DNA of 64,000 bases, taken from assembly GCA_000146465.1 (NCBI GenBank), contig CP001950.1; one strand, written 5' to 3'. Under the pieces are notes generated by a model that was given only the letters and a program-made list of their open reading frames with translations, had not been told where the DNA came from and ran no database searches. Positions 11,374 to 41,040 of this stretch are shown here, piece by piece; within the stretch, counting starts at the first letter, position 1; every line of letters starts with the position of its first letter. The translations under genes and the position numbers were made by a program.

Positions 11374-11919
11374 TTAATCTGTTGAGGAGACTTGTTCCCG
11401 TTCTGTCCCTGTCTTGACAATTTCTCCAAAGAACAGATTCAGGAGGAATCTTGCAATTGAAGTATGATATATCCTGTAGAAAGGATTACATCTGAGATCC
11501 AGCATTCTCAAAGAGCCTATCCCCTCCTTCCTAAGCTTCAAGAGATACCATGGGAAAAACCTTAATCTGTTATTAGATAGATTGAGTACCTTCAGATTCT
11601 TCATATTTTTCATCGAGCGCGGGAGCCTTCTTATCCTATTGTTAGAAGCATCTACCTCTTCAATCCACTCCAGACACCCAAAATCTGAGGGTAATTCCTT
11701 CAGCTTATTATCTGAAAGATCGAGTTTCCTGATCTTCTTGTTCCTTTTCAGGGCCTCCATCATTTCAGGAGATATGAACTCAAGGTCCATATCATGGAGA
11801 TCGCAGATTTTCAAATCTTCTAAGTTTTTAATGATACTTAGTGCTTCGTTCATATTGTCTGAGCACAAGACATGCATCAGAAAAAAAGGCAAAATGCTGA
11901 TCCTGAGTTTAGTATTCAT
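11374..11919 (-). CDS. Small secreted leucine-rich-repeat protein
   Basis: N-terminal hydrophobic signal-like segment (MNTKLRISILPFFLMHVLC) followed by LRRs (LDLSDNKLKELP, VDASNNRIRRLP, LNLSNNRLRFFP). AAATTT+CCC signal upstream. Confidence 0.6.
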   Translation of the reverse strand: MNTKLRISILPFFLMHVLCSDNMNEALSIIKNLEDLKICDLHDMDLEFISPEMMEALKRNKKIRKLDLSDNKLKELPSDFGCLEWIEEVDASNNRIRRLPRSMKNMKNLKVLNLSNNRLRFFPWYLLKLRKEGIGSLRMLDLRCNPFYRIYHTSIARFLLNLFFGEIVKTGTEREQVSSTD

Positions 11920-20562: not shown

Positions 20563-21006
20563 ATGATCTTCCTCCTTATTTTCACTGTTGTGCTGGCAAT
20601 CTTCATTAGAATTGTAGCACACCTCATCACAAGAAGGGGACCTAGGGTGATAAAGTTTGTTGGACCTCGTGGAGCAGGAAAGACCAAGACACTTAATGCA
20701 CTGATGGGAATTCATGGTAGGACAGTCCCCACCCTTGAGAGCTACAAGGTAATATATAAAGGTATGGAAATACATGATGTAATTCCAAAGGATGGAAGCT
20801 TTTTTGAAAGATATGGCATTGATGATCCGTCGGCAACCTATTTCTTCTTCTTAAGAAGTATGGACGATTCTTATGGAATTCCGGGGGCAAAAGGATTGAA
20901 TGTAAGACTTGTATATTGTCAGCCATATGATGGCAAAGAGGCCTTGGAGAGAGGTGTCCTTGTGTTGGACAAGGATCTTACCCATATAGAAAAGTATTTC
21001 TCCTAG
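20563..21006 (+). CDS. Signal recognition particle receptor beta subunit-like small GTPase (N-terminal TM anchor)
   Basis: Hydrophobic N-terminus followed by the GTPase P-loop [10 protein letters not shown]. Confidence 0.6.
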
Positions 21007-21961: not shown

Positions 21962-22145
21962 CGGGGCTTTATAATTGTTCCTGATAACCACCTTGATGGT
22001 AGTAGACGTTCTCTAAAATGGCCGCTAGAATTACATTTAAAACAGAATGGAGTATGTGGCAGTACTCATGGAGCCATTGTTATACTTATGAAACTATTGT
22101 TTCGGGGTCTTTGTTGATAAACTCGTAACAAATGCATTGGATAGA

Positions 22146-24005
22146 ATGCTGGTCTTCTTCTTAGGCCTAACATTTGCGAAAGATGCTTGCGTTTCCGGGT
22201 CTGCAGAATGTGTTGCAAACACCTTGAGAGTGTGCGGAATAAAGAATCAGTGGATATACGTTGACTGTCCCTCCGGGACGGAGTGTGCAGTAAAAGGCAG
22301 TGAGATATCTTGTGTTCCGAATGGTGGAAAGGGAGAATTAGAGTCCCATGACAAGAAGAAGCCTAAGAAGAGGGATGAATCTGAGGCTTCTCAAAGCCTT
22401 GAGGAAAAGCAAGATTCAGGTGATGATCTCGGTGAAAGCCCTGAAGATAATAGACAATCTGAAGACGATAAGCCAGAAGAGCCCAATGAAGAACAAAAGA
22501 AGAAGGTCCATGGGAAGAAGGGGGACGAAGATCAAGAAGGGAAGAAAAAGACAAAAAAAGAAAAAGACAGTGATGAGAAAACCAAGGACAAGCATTTGGG
22601 CTTAGGAGAAGATAAAAAGAAAAACACAAAGGGAAATAAGAAAAAGGAACCTAAGGTTGTAACCAAAACAGTAAGTGTCTTGAAGAAGGAGACCACTACT
22701 ACTGTCACTGTATTGAAGACAGTTGTTCAAAAGCAACAGCCTACAGAGATAAAATTGGAATACACATCAAGTGACATTGAATCGAAAGTTAAGCCTGTTG
22801 GCTCTTCATCACCAGGACAAGGACAAGCTTTGCAGGGCTCAAGTAGAAATGTTTCAAAGGCAGGGCACCCTACTTCTCTCCCTGGTATCGAGAGCATGGG
22901 AGGAGCCAGTTCACCAGGGAAAGCGGGGCAAGGTGCAACACCGGCAGCACCATCTTCGTCAGGCAGTCCCTCCTCAGGAAAGGGTACATCGGTAGGAAGT
23001 AGCTCTTCGTCAGCCCCTTCTTCGCCAACAAGCAACAAGTCTTCTTCCGCACCTTCATCTCAAGGCAGCACACCAGAGTCACAGGGAAAGGCACAAACAG
23101 CTGGTGGAGGCACTGGAGGAGCTACCCCTTCTACAGGTTCGCAGGGAGGAAAGGGAGCAGAAAGTGGTAAATCGTCAGGAGGGTCGGCAGGAAAGACTAC
23201 TGGTGGAACTAGTTCTTCTGCAGGTTCGCAGGAGAAAAAAGAAACTGGAGGAAGTGCTGGGGGGTCTACTCAAGCTTCGGGAGGATCCCAAGGGCAGAAA
23301 GAATCAGAAGGTAGTAAACAACCAGAGGGAGGTGCAGGGGGAACTAGTCCTTCTACAGAGTCCCAGGGAGGAAAGAAAACAGAAAGTGGAAAATCATCTT
23401 CTTCAGAAGGAAAAGGAGGTTCACTTCTCTCGGCCGATAAGCTGACTAAGGTAATGACGAATTTGGGATACTCTCCCAATTCAGAATATATCGATGCAGT
23501 CGTCCTTGGAGTGAACGAGAGATTTTCGGACCTTAATCAGGCTGTAATGTTCGTGGCTCAATGTGCTCATGAGTCTGGAGGATATCAATATATTGAGGAA
23601 ATAGCGTGTGCTGGAGGAACGGGATGTGCAGGGCAGTATGGAACAGGAGCCCCCGGGAAGTCCTATCACGGAAGAGGATTCATACAACTCTCATGGCCTG
23701 AAAACTACAAGGCTGCAGGAGAAGCCCTGGGTCGGGGAGATGAGCTCTATAATAACCCCGAGAAAGTTGTAGAGAACCCAAGTCTTGCAGTAGATGTGTC
23801 GATATTCTACTGGGAGTCGAGGGTTGCAGATGCTCCTGGAGTGAAGGAAAACCATTTTGGAGCCACTACAAAGGCAATTAATGGAGCGCTGGAGTGCACG
23901 GGGTCTAATATTGATAAGAGCAAGAAAAGGTATGAGATATACACTGCTCTTGTTGAAGAATTTGGCGTTAGCAATCCTGCCGATGAAAGCGGATGTTACA
24001 GTTAG
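22146..24005 (+). CDS. Secreted multi-domain chitinase: signal peptide, 6-Cys module, K/E/D-rich segment, Ser/Gly/Thr-rich mucin-like linker, then a C-terminal GH19 catalytic domain
   Basis: N-terminal MLVFFLGLTFA. GH19 signatures AQCAHESGGYQYIEE, GRGFIQLSWPENY, NGALEC. About 250 aa of S/G/T/K low complexity with imperfect repeats. Confidence 0.8.
   Translation: MLVFFLGLTFAKDACVSGSAECVANTLRVCGIKNQWIYVDCPSGTECAVKGSEISCVPNGGKGELESHDKKKPKKRDESEASQSLEEKQDSGDDLGESPEDNRQSEDDKPEEPNEEQKKKVHGKKGDEDQEGKKKTKKEKDSDEKTKDKHLGLGEDKKKNTKGNKKKEPKVVTKTVSVLKKETTTTVTVLKTVVQKQQPTEIKLEYTSSDIESKVKPVGSSSPGQGQALQGSSRNVSKAGHPTSLPGIESMGGASSPGKAGQGATPAAPSSSGSPSSGKGTSVGSSSSSAPSSPTSNKSSSAPSSQGSTPESQGKAQTAGGGTGGATPSTGSQGGKGAESGKSSGGSAGKTTGGTSSSAGSQEKKETGGSAGGSTQASGGSQGQKESEGSKQPEGGAGGTSPSTESQGGKKTESGKSSSSEGKGGSLLSADKLTKVMTNLGYSPNSEYIDAVVLGVNERFSDLNQAVMFVAQCAHESGGYQYIEEIACAGGTGCAGQYGTGAPGKSYHGRGFIQLSWPENYKAAGEALGRGDELYNNPEKVVENPSLAVDVSIFYWESRVADAPGVKENHFGATTKAINGALECTGSNIDKSKKRYEIYTALVEEFGVSNPADESGCYS
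22850..23420 (+). repeat. Low-complexity Ser/Gly/Thr-rich coding repeats (mucin-like linker of the chitinase)
   Basis: Imperfect repeated units, e.g. GG(T/A)GGATPSTGSQGGKGAESGKSS and GGAGGTSPSTESQGGKKTESGKSS. Confidence 0.6.
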
Positions 24006-31489: not shown

Positions 31490-32716
31490 ATGAAGAGATT
31501 AAGCATTGCAATGGTATCCGACTTCTTTTATCCGGTAATGGGGGGAGTGGAGACCCATATAAGGTATTTGAGCGAGGAGTTGATTTCAATGGGGCACAAG
31601 GTCATAGTCATTACACACAAAATAGGGGACCTTGTTGGATGCAGAGCTGTGGGAAACATAAAGGTTTATTTTCTCGATATTCCTGTTTTATGCAGAAACA
31701 CAACATTCCCAAGTCTTTACTCCAACCTTCCTCTGTTCAAGGAAGTCTTCGATAACGAAAAGATCGAGATAGTTCATGGTCACCAGACAATGTCGAACAT
31801 GTGTATTGAGGCTTTATTTCATGCAAGAACATTGAACCTCAAGACAGTGATCACAGACCACTCGATATTCGAGGTGGGTCCCTTTGAGAACATTGTTGTT
31901 AACTCCCTGTGCAGACTTGCACTGAAGAACATAGACAGATGCATCTGCGTATCCTACACATCCAAGGAAAACACTCATATCAGAACCATGATCCCCCTTG
32001 AAAAGATCCACGTTATCCCCAATGGAATAGTCTCGGACATCTTCTATCCTAGGGAAAAAAAGCAGTCCGATGAAAGAATTGTTGTGGTAGCATCTAGACT
32101 TATGTTTAGGAAGGGAATAGATCTGCTCATTGGAGCAATCCCACTAATCTGTAAGGGAGATCCAGAAGTGAGGATTATTATAGTGGGAGATGGGCCTATG
32201 AAAGAAGGAATCGAACAGGTTTTAGACGAAAACGAGCTTTACGACAGAGTGGAGATAATTTGTGAGGTAGATCACGGAGAGGTTGGAGATATAATGAGAA
32301 GGGGTGATGTCTTTCTCAATACATCCTTAACAGAGACCTTTTGCATAGCCATAGTTGAGGCAGCTTCGTGTGGCCTCCATGTTGTAAGTACCAACGTCGG
32401 TGGGATCCATGAAGTCTTACCTCCAGACATGATAACATTCAGCAAAATTACATCTGAAGACCTTGCCGAGAAAGTACTGATGGCTTTGAAAAAAAACAAT
32501 CATAATCCGCAGGATTATAACAAAAGACTTAGAAACATATATAGCTGGGAAAGAGTAGCAAAGATGACTGAAAAGGTGTATGTTGACATCAAAGAAACTT
32601 CTCTCAGCTACTTGGACAGGAGAAAGGAGTTTAAGGGCGCCACAGGCTTTATTTCGAGATTCATGATAACCATGGAGTATATATTCCTCTTTTTCCTTGG
32701 TGGAAAGAGCAGGTAA
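31490..32716 (+). CDS. PIG-A: PIG-A/Spt14, GPI-GlcNAc transferase catalytic subunit (GT4)
   Basis: MVSDFFYPVMGGVETHI, HGHQTMSNMCIEALFHARTLNLKTVITDHS, CVSYTSKENT, FLNTSLTETFCIAIVEAASCGLHVVSTNVGGI all match PIG-A. Confidence 0.9.
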   Translation: MKRLSIAMVSDFFYPVMGGVETHIRYLSEELISMGHKVIVITHKIGDLVGCRAVGNIKVYFLDIPVLCRNTTFPSLYSNLPLFKEVFDNEKIEIVHGHQTMSNMCIEALFHARTLNLKTVITDHSIFEVGPFENIVVNSLCRLALKNIDRCICVSYTSKENTHIRTMIPLEKIHVIPNGIVSDIFYPREKKQSDERIVVVASRLMFRKGIDLLIGAIPLICKGDPEVRIIIVGDGPMKEGIEQVLDENELYDRVEIICEVDHGEVGDIMRRGDVFLNTSLTETFCIAIVEAASCGLHVVSTNVGGIHEVLPPDMITFSKITSEDLAEKVLMALKKNNHNPQDYNKRLRNIYSWERVAKMTEKVYVDIKETSLSYLDRRKEFKGATGFISRFMITMEYIFLFFLGGKSR

Positions 32717-36701: not shown

Positions 36702-37526
36702 ATGAAGTATTGCTTTTGCAGATGTTTCGAAGAGTCAAAGAACTTGGTGAAGATAGGCCTTGTTGACAGGATATTCAGAAGAGATGCCGACGAAAAAACA
36801 AAAAGCATGTGTCATCTTCTTTGCCTAAAACTTACAAACAACGGAAACATAAAAAGAAATGGAAGATGGGGATTCCAACCAGTCCTAGGAATGACTGAGT
36901 TCTTCTCAGCCCTTTTTTCGTTCATGAACCTCATAACAAACATCTTCTGCTTCCATAGAATGCTGAAGAAACACCTTCGGGTGACAAGATTGGGTAAGCT
37001 ATACTACATCCAATACTACATATGCAACCTGGCATTCATCTCCAGTACCCTCTTTCACATTCATGAGACCCCCTTTACAAGAAATTGCGACTATTTCCTA
37101 GCATTTCTAACAATTCTCTTCGGTTTCTATATGGCGCTTGTTAGAGTCATCCTCATGGCAAGCCCTTCCATGGAAAGAGCCATAAGAAAGCCACTCCAGC
37201 TTATCTTCACTCTGTTCTATGCATACCATATTCACAGAATGTCCAATATAGAATTTGACTACGTATACAATAAGATATCCTGCACCATCATCATCGCATT
37301 CACCCTTTTGTCACATCTGATAACATTCCTCAAGTACCGAAGAATGGAACACTCCAAAAACATCCTTCTGTTCACATTTTTCTTCTTTCTTGCAGGAGCA
37401 ATAGAGATCCAGGATGTGCCTCCATATGCCTATCTCATCGACTCCCATGCCATTTGGCATTTGATCTCTTGCATCTCAACGCCGTTCTACCTTCTCTTCT
37501 GGAGTGGAGACGTCTATATGCATTGA
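36702..37526 (+). CDS. PER1: PER1/PGAP3-family GPI-anchor lipid-remodelling protein
   Basis: Multi-TM protein with WGFQPVLGMTEF, HIHETPFT and DSHAIWHL motifs corresponding to Per1 conserved His and Asp sites. Confidence 0.65.
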   Translation: MKYCFCRCFEESKNLVKIGLVDRIFRRDADEKTKSMCHLLCLKLTNNGNIKRNGRWGFQPVLGMTEFFSALFSFMNLITNIFCFHRMLKKHLRVTRLGKLYYIQYYICNLAFISSTLFHIHETPFTRNCDYFLAFLTILFGFYMALVRVILMASPSMERAIRKPLQLIFTLFYAYHIHRMSNIEFDYVYNKISCTIIIAFTLLSHLITFLKYRRMEHSKNILLFTFFFFLAGAIEIQDVPPYAYLIDSHAIWHLISCISTPFYLLFWSGDVYMH

Positions 37527-39666: not shown

Positions 39667-41040
39667 ATGTTTGGAATTATGCTTGGCACTGTTTTTTTTT
39701 CAGGTTATGCTATGGCCGAGGCAGTCCACATGCAAGACAGCACTCTACTTGACAATCTCAAGATTGTTCCGAGTCCGTCTATGATTGGAATGGTAAGGGA
39801 CATGAAGAGCATTGTTTCGTATGTATCTGAAGATGAGAAGTTTGATGGGGAGGGAATTAAGATAAAGCATGATGGAAGAATGTTTGTTGTTTCAAAAGCT
39901 GAGGATGTTGAAGGAGCTGTAAACATTCTGAAGAAGTATCCTGCACCGACAGAGGAGGTTATTAAAACCATAAAATCCTCTGATGGAAAAGGAATTGAGG
40001 GAAACTTTATCATATACTTCCTGGACAATTCTGGATACAAGGAGAAGCTTGTAGGGAGTAGAGAAGGGTTGAATGTGTTTGTGTCTACTGATCCTGCCCT
40101 TGCATCTCTTTTGGATGCTTCTATTCCAGGAATATATGGATATAATGGAAGGGATAGGCTTTCGTACAAGTTCCCCTTTAGTGATAAGAATGCCACAAAA
40201 ATCTTTTCACTGACCAATCTTCCGATATTTGGATTTACTTCTGCAGAGAGCATTTCGTTGTATAGGTCATTGGATGGAACCATTTTCTATATTTTCTTTA
40301 ATCCATCCAGCAGTTTGGATGTCCTTAATGGGTACTCTGGAGTTTTGGATGACTTTAGGTACGATGTTCGAGTGATACTGATTCCAAGTGTCAAGGACGG
40401 CATCAATCTTGAGGACTACGGGCTAACGGAAAAAGATCTTCCAGGATGCATATCTATCAGCGAGGACGGAGGGAAGTATATCCTAAGGAATGTGACCAAG
40501 GAAAGCATTTCGGAATTTGTCAAGGATGTGTTGGGAGGAAAAGCTGAGGCGTTTTATAAATCCCAGGAGGAACCAAAAGATAACGGCAGTAAAAATGTTA
40601 AGGTGGTTACTAGAAACAACTCCAAGACATACCTTGGGGATGTTTCCAAGGACAGACTGGTTGTATTTGGAACCGAGAGATGCCCGCATTGCATCCGAAT
40701 TAAGCCGACACTTGAAAAGTTAGGGGAGATAGTAAAGAACAATGCAGATGACAAGGTGTTTATTGGATACTGTGATGTTGATATGAACGACATGAATGAC
40801 GTTGAGATTCGCTTTGTTCCGACCATTCTACTTTATAAGGCTGGAGAAAACAAGAGCATTCAGTACTCTGGTGGAGAAAGAAACCTCTTGAATTTAATTA
40901 CCTTTATCCGGGAGTCTGGAAGCCTAGGTGTTGATCTTTCGAAGTTTGCGGGTCAGGAAGATGAATCCGAGAAGAGGAAGTTTGAGGCTGGCAAGGAGGC
41001 CACTGGGTCTTGGGGAGAAGATGCAAGGGCAGAACTCTAA
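39667..41040 (+). CDS. Protein disulfide isomerase-like ER protein (signal peptide plus thioredoxin domain)
   Basis: N-terminal signal-like MFGIMLGTVFFSGYAMA; C-terminal thioredoxin fold with a CPHC active site. Confidence 0.65.
   Translation: MFGIMLGTVFFSGYAMAEAVHMQDSTLLDNLKIVPSPSMIGMVRDMKSIVSYVSEDEKFDGEGIKIKHDGRMFVVSKAEDVEGAVNILKKYPAPTEEVIKTIKSSDGKGIEGNFIIYFLDNSGYKEKLVGSREGLNVFVSTDPALASLLDASIPGIYGYNGRDRLSYKFPFSDKNATKIFSLTNLPIFGFTSAESISLYRSLDGTIFYIFFNPSSSLDVLNGYSGVLDDFRYDVRVILIPSVKDGINLEDYGLTEKDLPGCISISEDGGKYILRNVTKESISEFVKDVLGGKAEAFYKSQEEPKDNGSKNVKVVTRNNSKTYLGDVSKDRLVVFGTERCPHCIRIKPTLEKLGEIVKNNADDKVFIGYCDVDMNDMNDVEIRFVPTILLYKAGENKSIQYSGGERNLLNLITFIRESGSLGVDLSKFAGQEDESEKRKFEAGKEATGSWGEDARAEL

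What the first reader, a model, noticed from the sequence alone, without database searches (positions are those of the whole stretch)
22146..24005. Secreted GH19 chitinase with an unusual five-part architecture
The ORF combines a signal peptide, a 6-Cys module, a ~100-aa K/E/D-rich charged segment, a ~250-aa Ser/Gly/Thr-rich mucin-like linker with imperfect repeats, and a C-terminal GH19 catalytic domain. The catalytic-site motifs are present (CAHESGG with the general-acid Glu, YIEE, GRGFIQLSWPENY). GH19 enzymes are mainly plant or bacterial. In a chitin-walled intracellular parasite such an enzyme is a candidate spore-wall remodelling or germination factor, and the long probably O-glycosylated linker suggests anchoring in or spanning of the wall. 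It is the only clearly extracellular enzyme in the window.
Basis: partly seen in the sequence, partly recalled or inferred. Interest (0 to 1): 0.6.

Follow-up and report, generated by a model that had tools for sequence, protein, structure and literature searches.

The report
Microsporidian GH19 chitinase with chitin-binding module
This is the already annotated endochitinase of the microsporidian parasite Encephalitozoon intestinalis; its odd-looking layout is an ordinary modular chitinase (chitin-binding module, very long floppy tether, catalytic domain) shared across microsporidia.

Summary
ORF 22146..24005 (+) encodes a 619-aa protein that is 100% identical to the GenBank 'endochitinase' of Encephalitozoon intestinalis ATCC 50506. 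It has a short hydrophobic N-terminus, a 6-Cys module, a charged segment, a Ser/Gly/Thr-rich segment with imperfect repeats, and a C-terminal GH19 domain. The catalytic Glu476, Glu485 and Ser516 are intact.

The layout is not unusual for the phylum: it recurs in Ordospora, Enteropsectra, Nucleospora, Ecytonucleospora hepatopenaei (EHP), Hamiltosporidium, Glugoides and Pseudoloma.

The 6-Cys module is a divergent CBM19-like chitin-binding module:
- Its HMM finds proteins that pass the Pfam CBM_19 threshold.
- hhalign gives 97.7% probability, E 2.4e-12.
- CBM_19 is the most frequent Pfam match for microsporidian modules.

So the 'five parts' reduce to signal peptide, CBM, a 367-aa disordered tether and GH19. 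That is the logic of plant class I/IV chitinases, Streptomyces ChiC and yeast Cts1.

Its role is unexplained. The linker is not an assembly artefact. GH19 chitinases in Microsporidia, and a spore-wall or germination role for them, are already in the literature. Interest is low to moderate.

The parts
22146..24005 (+). Complete endochitinase gene (619 codons plus stop)
   Evidence: ORF list. 100% identical to NCBI 'endochitinase [Encephalitozoon intestinalis ATCC 50506]'. The identical protein is on 5 contigs.
22146..22178 (+). Probable cleavable signal peptide, aa 1-11 (MLVFFLGLTFA | KD)
   Evidence: Best 8-residue Kyte-Doolittle window is 2.84, and T(-3)/A(-1) fit the -3,-1 rule. 17 of the 19 other orthologues checked also have a hydrophobic stretch just upstream of the first module Cys (Kyte-Doolittle score at least 2.0; P0030 and P0057 fall below). 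No other hydrophobic segment exists: the maximum 19-aa KD beyond aa 25 is 0.77. SignalP was not available, so this is a heuristic.
22182..22319 (+). CBM19-like 6-Cys module, aa 13-58 (putative chitin-binding module)
22320..22655 (+). Charged polyampholyte part of the disordered tether, aa 59-170: an acidic block (59-115) then a basic block (116-170)
   Evidence: Composition K30, E19, D14. The blocks have K+R 10 / D+E 20 and then K+R 22 / D+E 13. pLDDT is below 50. Identity to other Encephalitozoon species is only 29-43%, while length (111-186 aa) and charge are kept.
22656..22790 (+). Conserved T/V-rich strand-like element ending in the invariant P199-x-EIKLEY206, aa 171-215
   Evidence: P199, E201, I202, K203, L204, E205, Y206 are invariant in 11 orthologues. 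Identity within Encephalitozoon is 71-78%, against about 30% in the flanking linker. AF2 predicts no fold and there is no Pfam hit.
22791..23420 (+). Ser/Gly/Thr-rich, mucin-like part of the tether, aa 216-425; candidate O-mannosylation region
   Evidence: S56, G51, T17 of 210 residues. pLDDT is below 50. Identity is 29-33% among Encephalitozoon, with length 139-219 aa and S+T fraction 0.18-0.51 across orthologues.
23106..23398 (+). Imperfect internal duplication in the linker (units 23106-23176 and 23328-23398); extra sequence relative to the other Encephalitozoon species
   Evidence: the repeat finder families D1 and D2. Alignment columns 470-510 are filled only in E. intestinalis and P0005. 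18/29 residues are identical.
23421..24002 (+). GH19 catalytic domain, aa 426-619, of the short 'loopless' type
   Evidence: Pfam PF00182 E 1.4e-14. phmmer against PDB: S. griseus ChiC 1wvu E 4.3e-21 and S. coelicolor ChiG 2cjl E 1.1e-20. AF2 pLDDT is mostly above 90. Foldseek finds ChiC 2dbt at E 4.4e-9, with TM-score 0.67-0.70 relative to the target.
23571..23573 (+). Glu476, predicted general acid
   Evidence: Aligns with position 118 of chain 1wvu_A. That is Glu147 of ChiC if the chain starts 29 residues into the precursor, an offset taken from memory. The E147Q mutant is 1wvv. Invariant in all orthologues.
23598..23600 (+). Glu485, predicted general base
   Evidence: Aligns with the Glu of 'YIKE' in ChiC (Glu156). 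Invariant.
23691..23693 (+). Ser516 in GRGFIQLSW, predicted to position the catalytic water
   Evidence: Identical 'IQLSW' in ChiC. Invariant. The role is assigned from established GH19 knowledge (barley Ser120), not tested here.

Best explanation
The gene encodes the E. intestinalis orthologue of the microsporidian endochitinase (E. cuniculi ECU09_1320). It is a secreted, modular, inverting GH19 endo-chitinase. After a short signal peptide is removed, the mature protein starts with a 46-aa, three-disulfide, all-beta module homologous to CBM19. I infer that this module binds chitin through a face that includes the invariant Trp36. A tether of about 367 aa follows, predicted to be disordered. 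It has an acidic block, a basic block, a conserved T/V-rich P-x-EIKLEY element and a Ser/Gly/Thr-rich stretch that is probably O-mannosylated. The tether links the module to a C-terminal 'loopless' GH19 domain. In that domain Glu476 should protonate the glycosidic oxygen, and Glu485, with Ser516 holding the water, should activate the nucleophile. The most likely job is local nicking and remodelling of the parasite's own chitin endospore during sporogony, and possibly at germination. The CBM would dock the enzyme on insoluble wall chitin, and the tether would let the catalytic domain sweep a neighbourhood around that anchor. Shown here: the GH19 identity, the intact catalytic residues, the homology of the Cys module to CBM19, the predicted disorder, and the conservation pattern. 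Inferred: secretion, chitin binding, glycosylation, the substrate (own wall) and the timing.
Confidence: 0.75

Rival explanations
1. The enzyme is aimed at foreign chitin, such as the gut peritrophic matrix or cuticle of arthropod hosts or competing fungi, rather than the parasite's own wall. It would be an invasion or nutrition factor.
For: Some authors propose that GH19 chitinases of early-diverging fungi act on the chitin of animal hosts or other fungi (PMC8778642). Genome papers list endochitinases among putative virulence or attachment factors (PMC3726280, PMC5848443). Several orthologue-bearing species infect crustaceans or insects.
Against: The same architecture, with 83% identical catalytic domains, is kept in Encephalitozoon species whose mammalian host cells contain no chitin. 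The parasite develops intracellularly and its only chitin nearby is its own endospore. The E. cuniculi orthologue is co-induced with chitin synthase at sporogony (title of Ronnebaumer 2006, cited in PMC3486916).
Confidence: 0.1
2. The 6-Cys module is not a carbohydrate binder. It would be a generic disulfide-rich protein-interaction or stabilising domain whose resemblance to CBM19 is convergent, and the protein would be held in the wall by other means, for example the EIKLEY element or the basic block.
Confidence: 0.13
3. The long low-complexity linker is an assembly or annotation artefact, such as a collapsed repeat or a fusion of two genes.
For: Low-complexity composition and imperfect repeats. 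E. intestinalis has about 40 extra residues relative to its congeners.
Against: Exactly the same 619-aa protein is encoded on 5 contigs; how many independent assemblies these represent was not checked. There is a single uninterrupted ORF. Every orthologue from at least nine genera has a linker of comparable length between the same two domains. The repeats are only 61-79% identical, too diverged to collapse.
Confidence: 0.02
4. The GH19 domain is a catalytically dead chitinase-like lectin that serves as a structural spore-wall protein.
For: Chitinase-like proteins without activity exist in GH19 (plant CLPs among the PDB hits).
Against: Both catalytic Glu residues, Ser516 and the surrounding motifs are invariant across all orthologues and align with the ChiC catalytic residues. 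The Nosema homologue NbchiA is enzymatically active (PMC10381864).
Confidence: 0.03

Closest known systems
Microsporidian endochitinase orthogroup (E. cuniculi ECU09_1320; Ordospora M896_021680; Hamiltosporidium TBU07008.1; Pseudoloma KRH93262.1)
   Same: It is a member: 100% identical to the annotated E. intestinalis entry. It shares the order signal peptide, 6-Cys module, low-complexity tether, GH19 with all of them.
   Different: E. intestinalis has a lineage-specific, roughly 40-aa duplication in the Ser/Gly-rich part. Pseudoloma-type members replace the EIKLEY region with a Cys-rich LPCCDE...RICK element.
Nosema bombycis NbchiA (characterised GH19 class IV-type chitinase; Han et al. 2016, cited in PMC10381864 and PMC8042737)
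   Same: Same enzyme family and phylum. It gives experimental proof that microsporidian GH19 domains hydrolyse chitin oligomers. It has the same proposed role in the spore wall and germination.
   Different: From memory of the abstract, its catalytic residues are numbered Glu51 and Glu60. If so, the enzyme has no long N-terminal CBM and tether. I could not read the paper or retrieve the sequence, so this is unverified.
Streptomyces griseus ChiC (1wvu) and S. coelicolor ChiG (2cjl), bacterial 'loopless' GH19 chitinases
   Same: These are the closest solved catalytic domains (E about 1e-21; Foldseek E 4e-9). They have the same catalytic Glu/Glu/Ser and the same short-loop design. ChiC is also CBM-linker-GH19.
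   Different: ChiC's N-terminal chitin-binding domain belongs, from memory, to the unrelated, largely Cys-free CBM5/12 family and is joined by a short linker. The module here is CBM19-like and the tether is about 367 aa.
Plant class I / class IV chitinases (CBM18 hevein domain, hinge, GH19)
   Same: Same logic and same order: an N-terminal disulfide-rich chitin-binding module, a flexible hinge and a GH19 domain. The class IV catalytic domains are similarly short (3hbd, 4mck).
   Different: The module is not a hevein/CBM18 domain (no PF00187 hit, different Cys pattern). The plant hinge is tens of residues, not hundreds.
Yeast Cts1-type chitinases (GH18, Ser/Thr-rich O-mannosylated linker, CBM19) and the Dimargaris cristalligena GH19+CBM19 protein
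   Same: They use a CBM19-family module and a Ser/Thr-rich linker in a wall-remodelling chitinase. One early-diverging fungal GH19 is already reported with a CBM19 (PMC6784888). The Cts1 architecture is from established knowledge.
   Different: Cts1 has a GH18 catalytic domain with the CBM at the C-terminus. The microsporidian module is too diverged to be called CBM19 by standard thresholds, so this combination was not reported for Microsporidia in the papers I could search.

Membership tests
GH19 (Pfam PF00182, chitinase subfamily) | Significant match to the family profile above the curated threshold | tested here: met
   54.9 bits against a cut-off of 25.5, E 1.4e-14. 39 PDB GH19 sequences match, best E 4.3e-21.
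GH19 (Pfam PF00182, chitinase subfamily) | General-acid Glu and general-base Glu about 9 residues apart, plus the Ser/Thr that holds the nucleophilic water | tested here: met
   E476 and E485 align with ChiC Glu147 and Glu156. S516 lies in the identical IQLSW motif. All are invariant in 11 orthologues.
GH19 (Pfam PF00182, chitinase subfamily) | Alpha-rich lysozyme-like fold | tested here: met
   AF2 pLDDT is mostly above 90 for aa 430-619, except the loop at 488-505. Foldseek finds 23 GH19 structures at E <= 1e-3, and a 24th (4ok7) at 1.2e-3; TM-score relative to the target is 0.67-0.70 for the best-matching chains.
GH19 (Pfam PF00182, chitinase subfamily) | Chitinase rather than phage-type endolysin branch | tested here: met
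   Chitinases score E 1e-21 to 1e-7, while endolysins score only 8e-9 to 4e-3. The same ranking appears by structure.
GH19 (Pfam PF00182, chitinase subfamily) | Hydrolysis of beta-1,4-GlcNAc linkages with inversion | not testable with these tools
   Needs an enzyme assay. Activity is known only for the Nosema homologue (PMC10381864).
CBM19 (Pfam PF03427) | Match to the family profile above the gathering score | tested here: not met
   The E. intestinalis module gives no CBM_19 hit even at E <= 10. Among 23 microsporidian modules, 10 match, best E 1.9e-4. I therefore call it 'CBM19-like', not a curated member.
CBM19 (Pfam PF03427) | Homology detectable by profile methods to bona fide members | tested here: met
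   The module HMM finds the CBM_19-positive proteins P0045 and P0068. hhalign gives 97.7%, E 2.4e-12 over 39 columns. The permutation control reaches a maximum of 19.3 against 53.2.
CBM19 (Pfam PF03427) | Six-Cys framework with conserved Gly and aromatic positions (C-x-PG-x3-C ... G-x-W ... C-(P/G)-x-GT-x-C ... C) | tested here: met
   The spacing here is C-x6-C-x7-C-x10-C-x5-C-x8-C. In the CBM19 repeats of P0045 it is C-x6-C-x7-C-x9-C-x5-C-x9-C.
CBM19 (Pfam PF03427) | Small beta fold of the CBM14/19 type | tested here: inconclusive
   [not shown]
CBM19 (Pfam PF03427) | Binding to chitin | not testable with these tools
   Needs a pull-down or ITC experiment.
Plant class I/IV chitinase (CBM18 + GH19) | Hevein-type CBM18 domain (8 Cys, PF00187) | tested here: not met
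   No PF00187 match at E <= 10 for any module. The protein works like this class but is not a member.
Secreted protein (classical signal peptide) | Cleavable N-terminal signal peptide | tested here: inconclusive
   A hydrophobic 9-residue core and a -3/-1 site were judged by heuristics only. 17 of the 19 other orthologues checked conserve a hydrophobic N-terminus (P0030 and P0057 fall below). SignalP is unavailable.
Mucin-like O-glycosylated linker | High Ser/Thr density in a disordered region; actual glycans | tested here: inconclusive
   S+T is 35% of aa 207-425 and pLDDT is below 50. O-mannosylation machinery exists in Microsporidia (PMC3879972). The modification itself is not testable here.

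The most novel reading that the evidence does not exclude
The invariant T/V-rich P-x-EIKLEY element sits in the middle of an otherwise fast-evolving 367-aa tether. It could be a previously undescribed short linear motif that fixes or processes the enzyme in the spore wall. Possible modes are beta-strand addition or aggregation with wall proteins, or cleavage by the subtilisin-like proteases co-induced at sporogony. If so, CBM, motif and tether length together would set where and how far the chitinase can cut. In addition, the CBM19-like module appears to have unrecognised relatives in tandem arrays in bacterial lipoproteins, which would extend a 'fungal' CBM family to bacteria.
Probability: 0.2. 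Interest if true: 0.45.

Novelty: already known. Interest (0 to 1): 0.25.

Why it matters
Chitin is the main rigid component of the microsporidian endospore, and this GH19 protein appears to be the phylum's only chitinase type. It is therefore a plausible control point for spore maturation and germination, and a conceivable drug or diagnostic target. The gene and its family are already annotated and a homologue is biochemically characterised. What this analysis adds is modest. The 'mystery' Cys module is a divergent CBM19-like chitin binder that standard annotation misses. The architecture is shared across several microsporidian lineages. The tether contains one conserved, unexplained motif. 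These points give concrete constructs for experiments (module alone, W36A, tether deletions, EIKLEY mutants) but do not change the picture of the system.

Tried and rejected
1. Searching the 5.8-billion protein set with the 50-aa module alignment found nothing, because too few shared words exist. The exhaustive HMM search was what worked.

2. The search with the full protein returned only 11 hits, because low-complexity words filled the candidate list. Nosema and Vairimorpha homologues were not retrieved, so I could not test whether they lack the module.

3. Foldseek against PDB with the 50-aa model gave only insignificant hits, such as ribosomal L6 and pacifastin-like inhibitors. The afdb50 library was unavailable.

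4. Tandem Repeats Finder found no array in the linker. Only gapless seed extension revealed the diverged repeats.

5. The primary papers (Ronnebaumer 2006; Han 2016) are not held. Their content is cited only through titles and through other papers' statements.

6. A literature search for the locus tags gave only the Ordospora genome paper.

7. I considered and rejected EGF, TIL, GILT and zinc-finger readings of the module. Those Pfam matches are weaker, inconsistent between members and below threshold.

8. I considered a membrane anchor or GPI anchor. There is no second hydrophobic segment and the C-terminus is hydrophilic.

9. I considered an assembly artefact. It is rejected.
Full report
**Observation**

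The window is from Encephalitozoon intestinalis. The protein encoded at 22146..24005 (+) is 100% identical over 619 aa to the NCBI entry 'endochitinase [Encephalitozoon intestinalis ATCC 50506]'. Exactly this protein is encoded on five contigs in public assemblies. The ORF list confirms one uninterrupted frame. The in-frame TTG at 22137 is a by-product of the bacterial start rules of the tool, and all orthologues begin at the same MLVFF.

A direct read of the translation gives these parts:
- aa 1-11: a hydrophobic N-terminus, MLVFFLGLTFA.
- aa 13-58: a module with six Cys.
- aa 59-170: a K/E/D-rich segment.
- aa 171-215: a T/V-rich stretch ending in P-T-EIKLEY.
- aa 216-425: a Ser/Gly/Thr-rich segment.
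- aa 426-619: the catalytic domain.

The exceptions are the fifth element, which it missed, and the linker length (210 aa, or 255 aa with the T/V element, not about 250).

**The catalytic domain**

Pfam Glyco_hydro_19 matches at E 1.4e-14, 54.9 bits against a cut-off of 25.5. The closest solved relatives are the bacterial 'loopless' chitinases ChiC of Streptomyces griseus (1wvu, E 4.3e-21) and ChiG of S. coelicolor (2cjl, E 1.1e-20), followed by plant class IV enzymes. Phage-type GH19 endolysins score far worse.

In the printed alignment, Glu476 falls on the mutated residue of the ChiC E147Q structure, and Glu485 falls on the Glu of YIKE (Glu156). The IQLSW motif with Ser516 is identical. All three residues are invariant in 11 orthologues.

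The AlphaFold model has pLDDT mostly above 90 for this domain. Foldseek retrieves 23 GH19 structures at E <= 1e-3, with ChiC at E 4.4e-9. The GH19 claim is as secure as sequence analysis can make it.

**The architecture is not unusual for the phylum**

The first homology search returned full-length orthologues of 515-668 aa from E. romaleae, E. hellem, E. cuniculi, two Ordospora species, Enteropsectra, Nucleospora and Ecytonucleospora hepatopenaei (EHP). Their alignment shows the same succession of parts.

An exhaustive HMM search with the Cys module alone added proteins of 540-680 aa with an N-terminal module, a long low-complexity middle and a C-terminal chitinase domain. Pfam confirmed GH19 for the four of these that were scanned (P0014, P0015, P0018, P0021). 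The named sources are Hamiltosporidium, Glugoides and Pseudoloma; several others are unnamed metagenome or SRA assemblies.

Conservation is strongly bimodal. Against the other Encephalitozoon species:

| Part | Identity |
|---|---|
| 6-Cys module | 91% |
| GH19 domain | 83% |
| T/V-EIKLEY element | 71-78% |
| Charged segment | 29-43% |
| Ser/Gly/Thr segment | 29-33% |

The lengths of the two low-complexity segments are nevertheless kept, at 111-186 aa and 139-219 aa. That is the signature of a functional disordered spacer. It also explains why the Ordospora genome paper listed this gene among the most variable between genera (PMC4313915).

**What the 6-Cys module is**

Pfam gives no hit for the E. 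intestinalis module. An HMM built from ten microsporidian modules was scored against 1.84 billion representative proteins. It found 84 proteins at E <= 1e-3.

Besides the orthologues, the hits include P0045 (E 3.8e-7) and P0068 (E 1.3e-4). Both pass the Pfam CBM_19 gathering score, at 42.4 and 29 bits against 20.1, with secondary CBM_14 matches. P0045 is 80% identical to a Basidiobolus meristosporus protein annotated with PF03427 and PF01607. P0068 is from the basidiomycete Atractiella.

Further tests:
- A profile-profile comparison of 23 microsporidian modules with eight CBM19 repeats from these proteins gives probability 97.7%, E 2.4e-12, score 53.2 over 39 columns. It aligns C-x-PG, the G-x-W and the CP-x-GT-x-C motifs.
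- Cys-rich domains can align trivially, so I shuffled all non-Cys columns of the CBM19 alignment 100 times. The score fell to 10.8 +/- 2.7, maximum 19.3. The similarity therefore does not rest on Cys spacing alone.
- Scanning the 23 modules one by one, CBM_19 is the most frequent Pfam family (10 of 23, best E 1.9e-4). This is ahead of scattered weak matches to GILT, TILa and others.
- Modelled alone, the module gives pLDDT 89 and five beta strands.

I conclude that the module is a divergent homologue of CBM19. It is 'CBM19-like' rather than a curated member, because the family threshold is not met. That it binds chitin is an inference from homology and context.

**The tether**

AlphaFold predicts aa 61-424 as disordered, with pLDDT below 50. 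The charged part is a polyampholyte with an acidic block (aa 59-115: K+R 10, D+E 20) followed by a basic block (aa 116-170: K+R 22, D+E 13). The basic block contains heparin-binding-type BBXB/BBBXXB motifs.

The Ser/Gly/Thr part is 35% Ser+Thr. Microsporidia retain protein O-mannosyltransferase, and they mannosylate polar tube and spore wall proteins (PMC3879972), so O-mannosylation is plausible but untested.

They correspond to about 40 residues that E. intestinalis has in excess of its congeners. They are too diverged to be a collapsed repeat, and the identical protein on five contigs argues against an artefact.

The one conserved island is aa 171-215, with T/V-alternating stretches and the invariant P199-x-E-I-K-L-E-Y206. 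It has no family match and no predicted fold, and I cannot explain it. In Pseudoloma-type orthologues the corresponding region instead carries a Cys-rich LPCCDE...SCRICK...PIRAIVIDRESLLG element.

**Secretion**

SignalP was not available, so the evidence is heuristic:
- The N-terminus has a 9-residue hydrophobic core and a T-F-A|K site that obeys the -3/-1 rule.
- 17 of the 19 other orthologues checked have a comparable hydrophobic stretch ending 2-5 residues before the first Cys; P0030 and P0057 fall below the cut-off.
- There is no other hydrophobic segment, and the C-terminus is hydrophilic. A transmembrane or GPI anchor is therefore unlikely.

**Mechanism proposed**

The protein is a modular chitinase: signal peptide, CBM19-like anchor, a tether of about 367 aa and a loopless inverting GH19 domain. 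The same logic is found in three known groups:
- plant class I/IV chitinases (CBM18, hinge, GH19);
- ChiC (chitin-binding domain, linker, GH19);
- yeast Cts1 (GH18, O-mannosylated Ser/Thr linker, CBM19; from established knowledge).

One early-diverging fungal GH19 has been reported with a CBM19 (PMC6784888).

Several facts from the literature point to the substrate:
- The literature survey I read found no GH18 chitinases in Microsporidia (PMC8042737).
- Mammalian host cells offer no chitin.
- The E. cuniculi orthologue is reported as induced together with chitin synthase at the meront-to-sporont transition (title of Ronnebaumer et al. 2006, cited in PMC3486916).

The most likely substrate is therefore the parasite's own endospore chitin, during wall construction and perhaps at germination. 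The latter was proposed for Nosema NbchiA (PMC10381864).

Rival readings are listed with their evidence and judged much less likely. They are: foreign chitin as the substrate, a non-carbohydrate role for the module, a dead enzyme, and an artefactual linker.

**Novelty and score**

The gene is annotated, the family is known in Microsporidia, a homologue is characterised, and the proposed function is the textbook one. The new points are three:
- the assignment of the Cys module to the CBM19 lineage, which was not reported in any paper I could search;
- the demonstration that the architecture is shared across several microsporidian lineages;
- the EIKLEY motif.

I rate the finding 'already known', with low to moderate interest (0.25).

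Noticed in passing
P0012, P0023, P0027, P0052, P0040, P0060, P0077 (hits; sequences): These proteins have lipoprotein-like signal sequences and so look bacterial. They carry 1-15 tandem copies of a related C-x-PG-x3-C-x-G-x5-C-x3-G-x-W unit. None of those scanned reaches Pfam CBM_19 (P0060 was not scanned). CBM19 is usually regarded as fungal, so these may be unrecognised bacterial relatives.
   Followed up: partly
P0054 (263 aa) and P0059 (415 aa), hits: These microsporidian-looking proteins have the same N-terminal signal peptide and 6-Cys module but no GH19 domain. P0059 ends in a Cys/Pro-rich KCNC/PKPQ repeat. They may be separate chitin-binding spore-wall proteins or truncated gene models.
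   Followed up: no
P0018, P0021, P0026 (Pseudoloma neurophilia), P0028, P0032: In this group of endochitinase orthologues, the linker region that holds P-x-EIKLEY in Encephalitozoon instead contains a conserved Cys-rich element, LPCCDEDLxxSCRICKDxxPIRAIVIDRESLLG.
   Followed up: no
window 39667-41040 (+): A 457-aa protein with a signal-like N-terminus and Thioredoxin and Thioredoxin_6 domains. It is probably the ER protein disulfide isomerase that would oxidise modules such as the 6-Cys domain.
   Followed up: partly
window 11374-11919 (-): A small 181-aa leucine-rich-repeat protein with a signal-peptide-like N-terminus. It could be a secreted LRR protein.
   Followed up: partly
window 31490-32716 (+) and 36702-37526 (+): Two GPI-anchor pathway genes lie 4 kb apart: PIG-A (GlcNAc transferase) and PER1 (GPI lipid remodelling).
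   Followed up: no
window 20563-21006 (+): A 147-aa protein with a strongly hydrophobic N-terminal signal anchor and a GPRGAGKT P-loop has no Pfam hit at E <= 0.01. It might be a very reduced SRP-receptor-beta-like GTPase; that is my guess, untested.
   Followed up: no
window 23106-23398 (+): E. intestinalis carries a lineage-specific internal duplication in the Ser/Gly-rich linker, adding about 40 residues relative to E. romaleae, E. hellem and E. cuniculi. It could serve as a strain or species length marker.
   Followed up: partly
[not shown]
   Followed up: no
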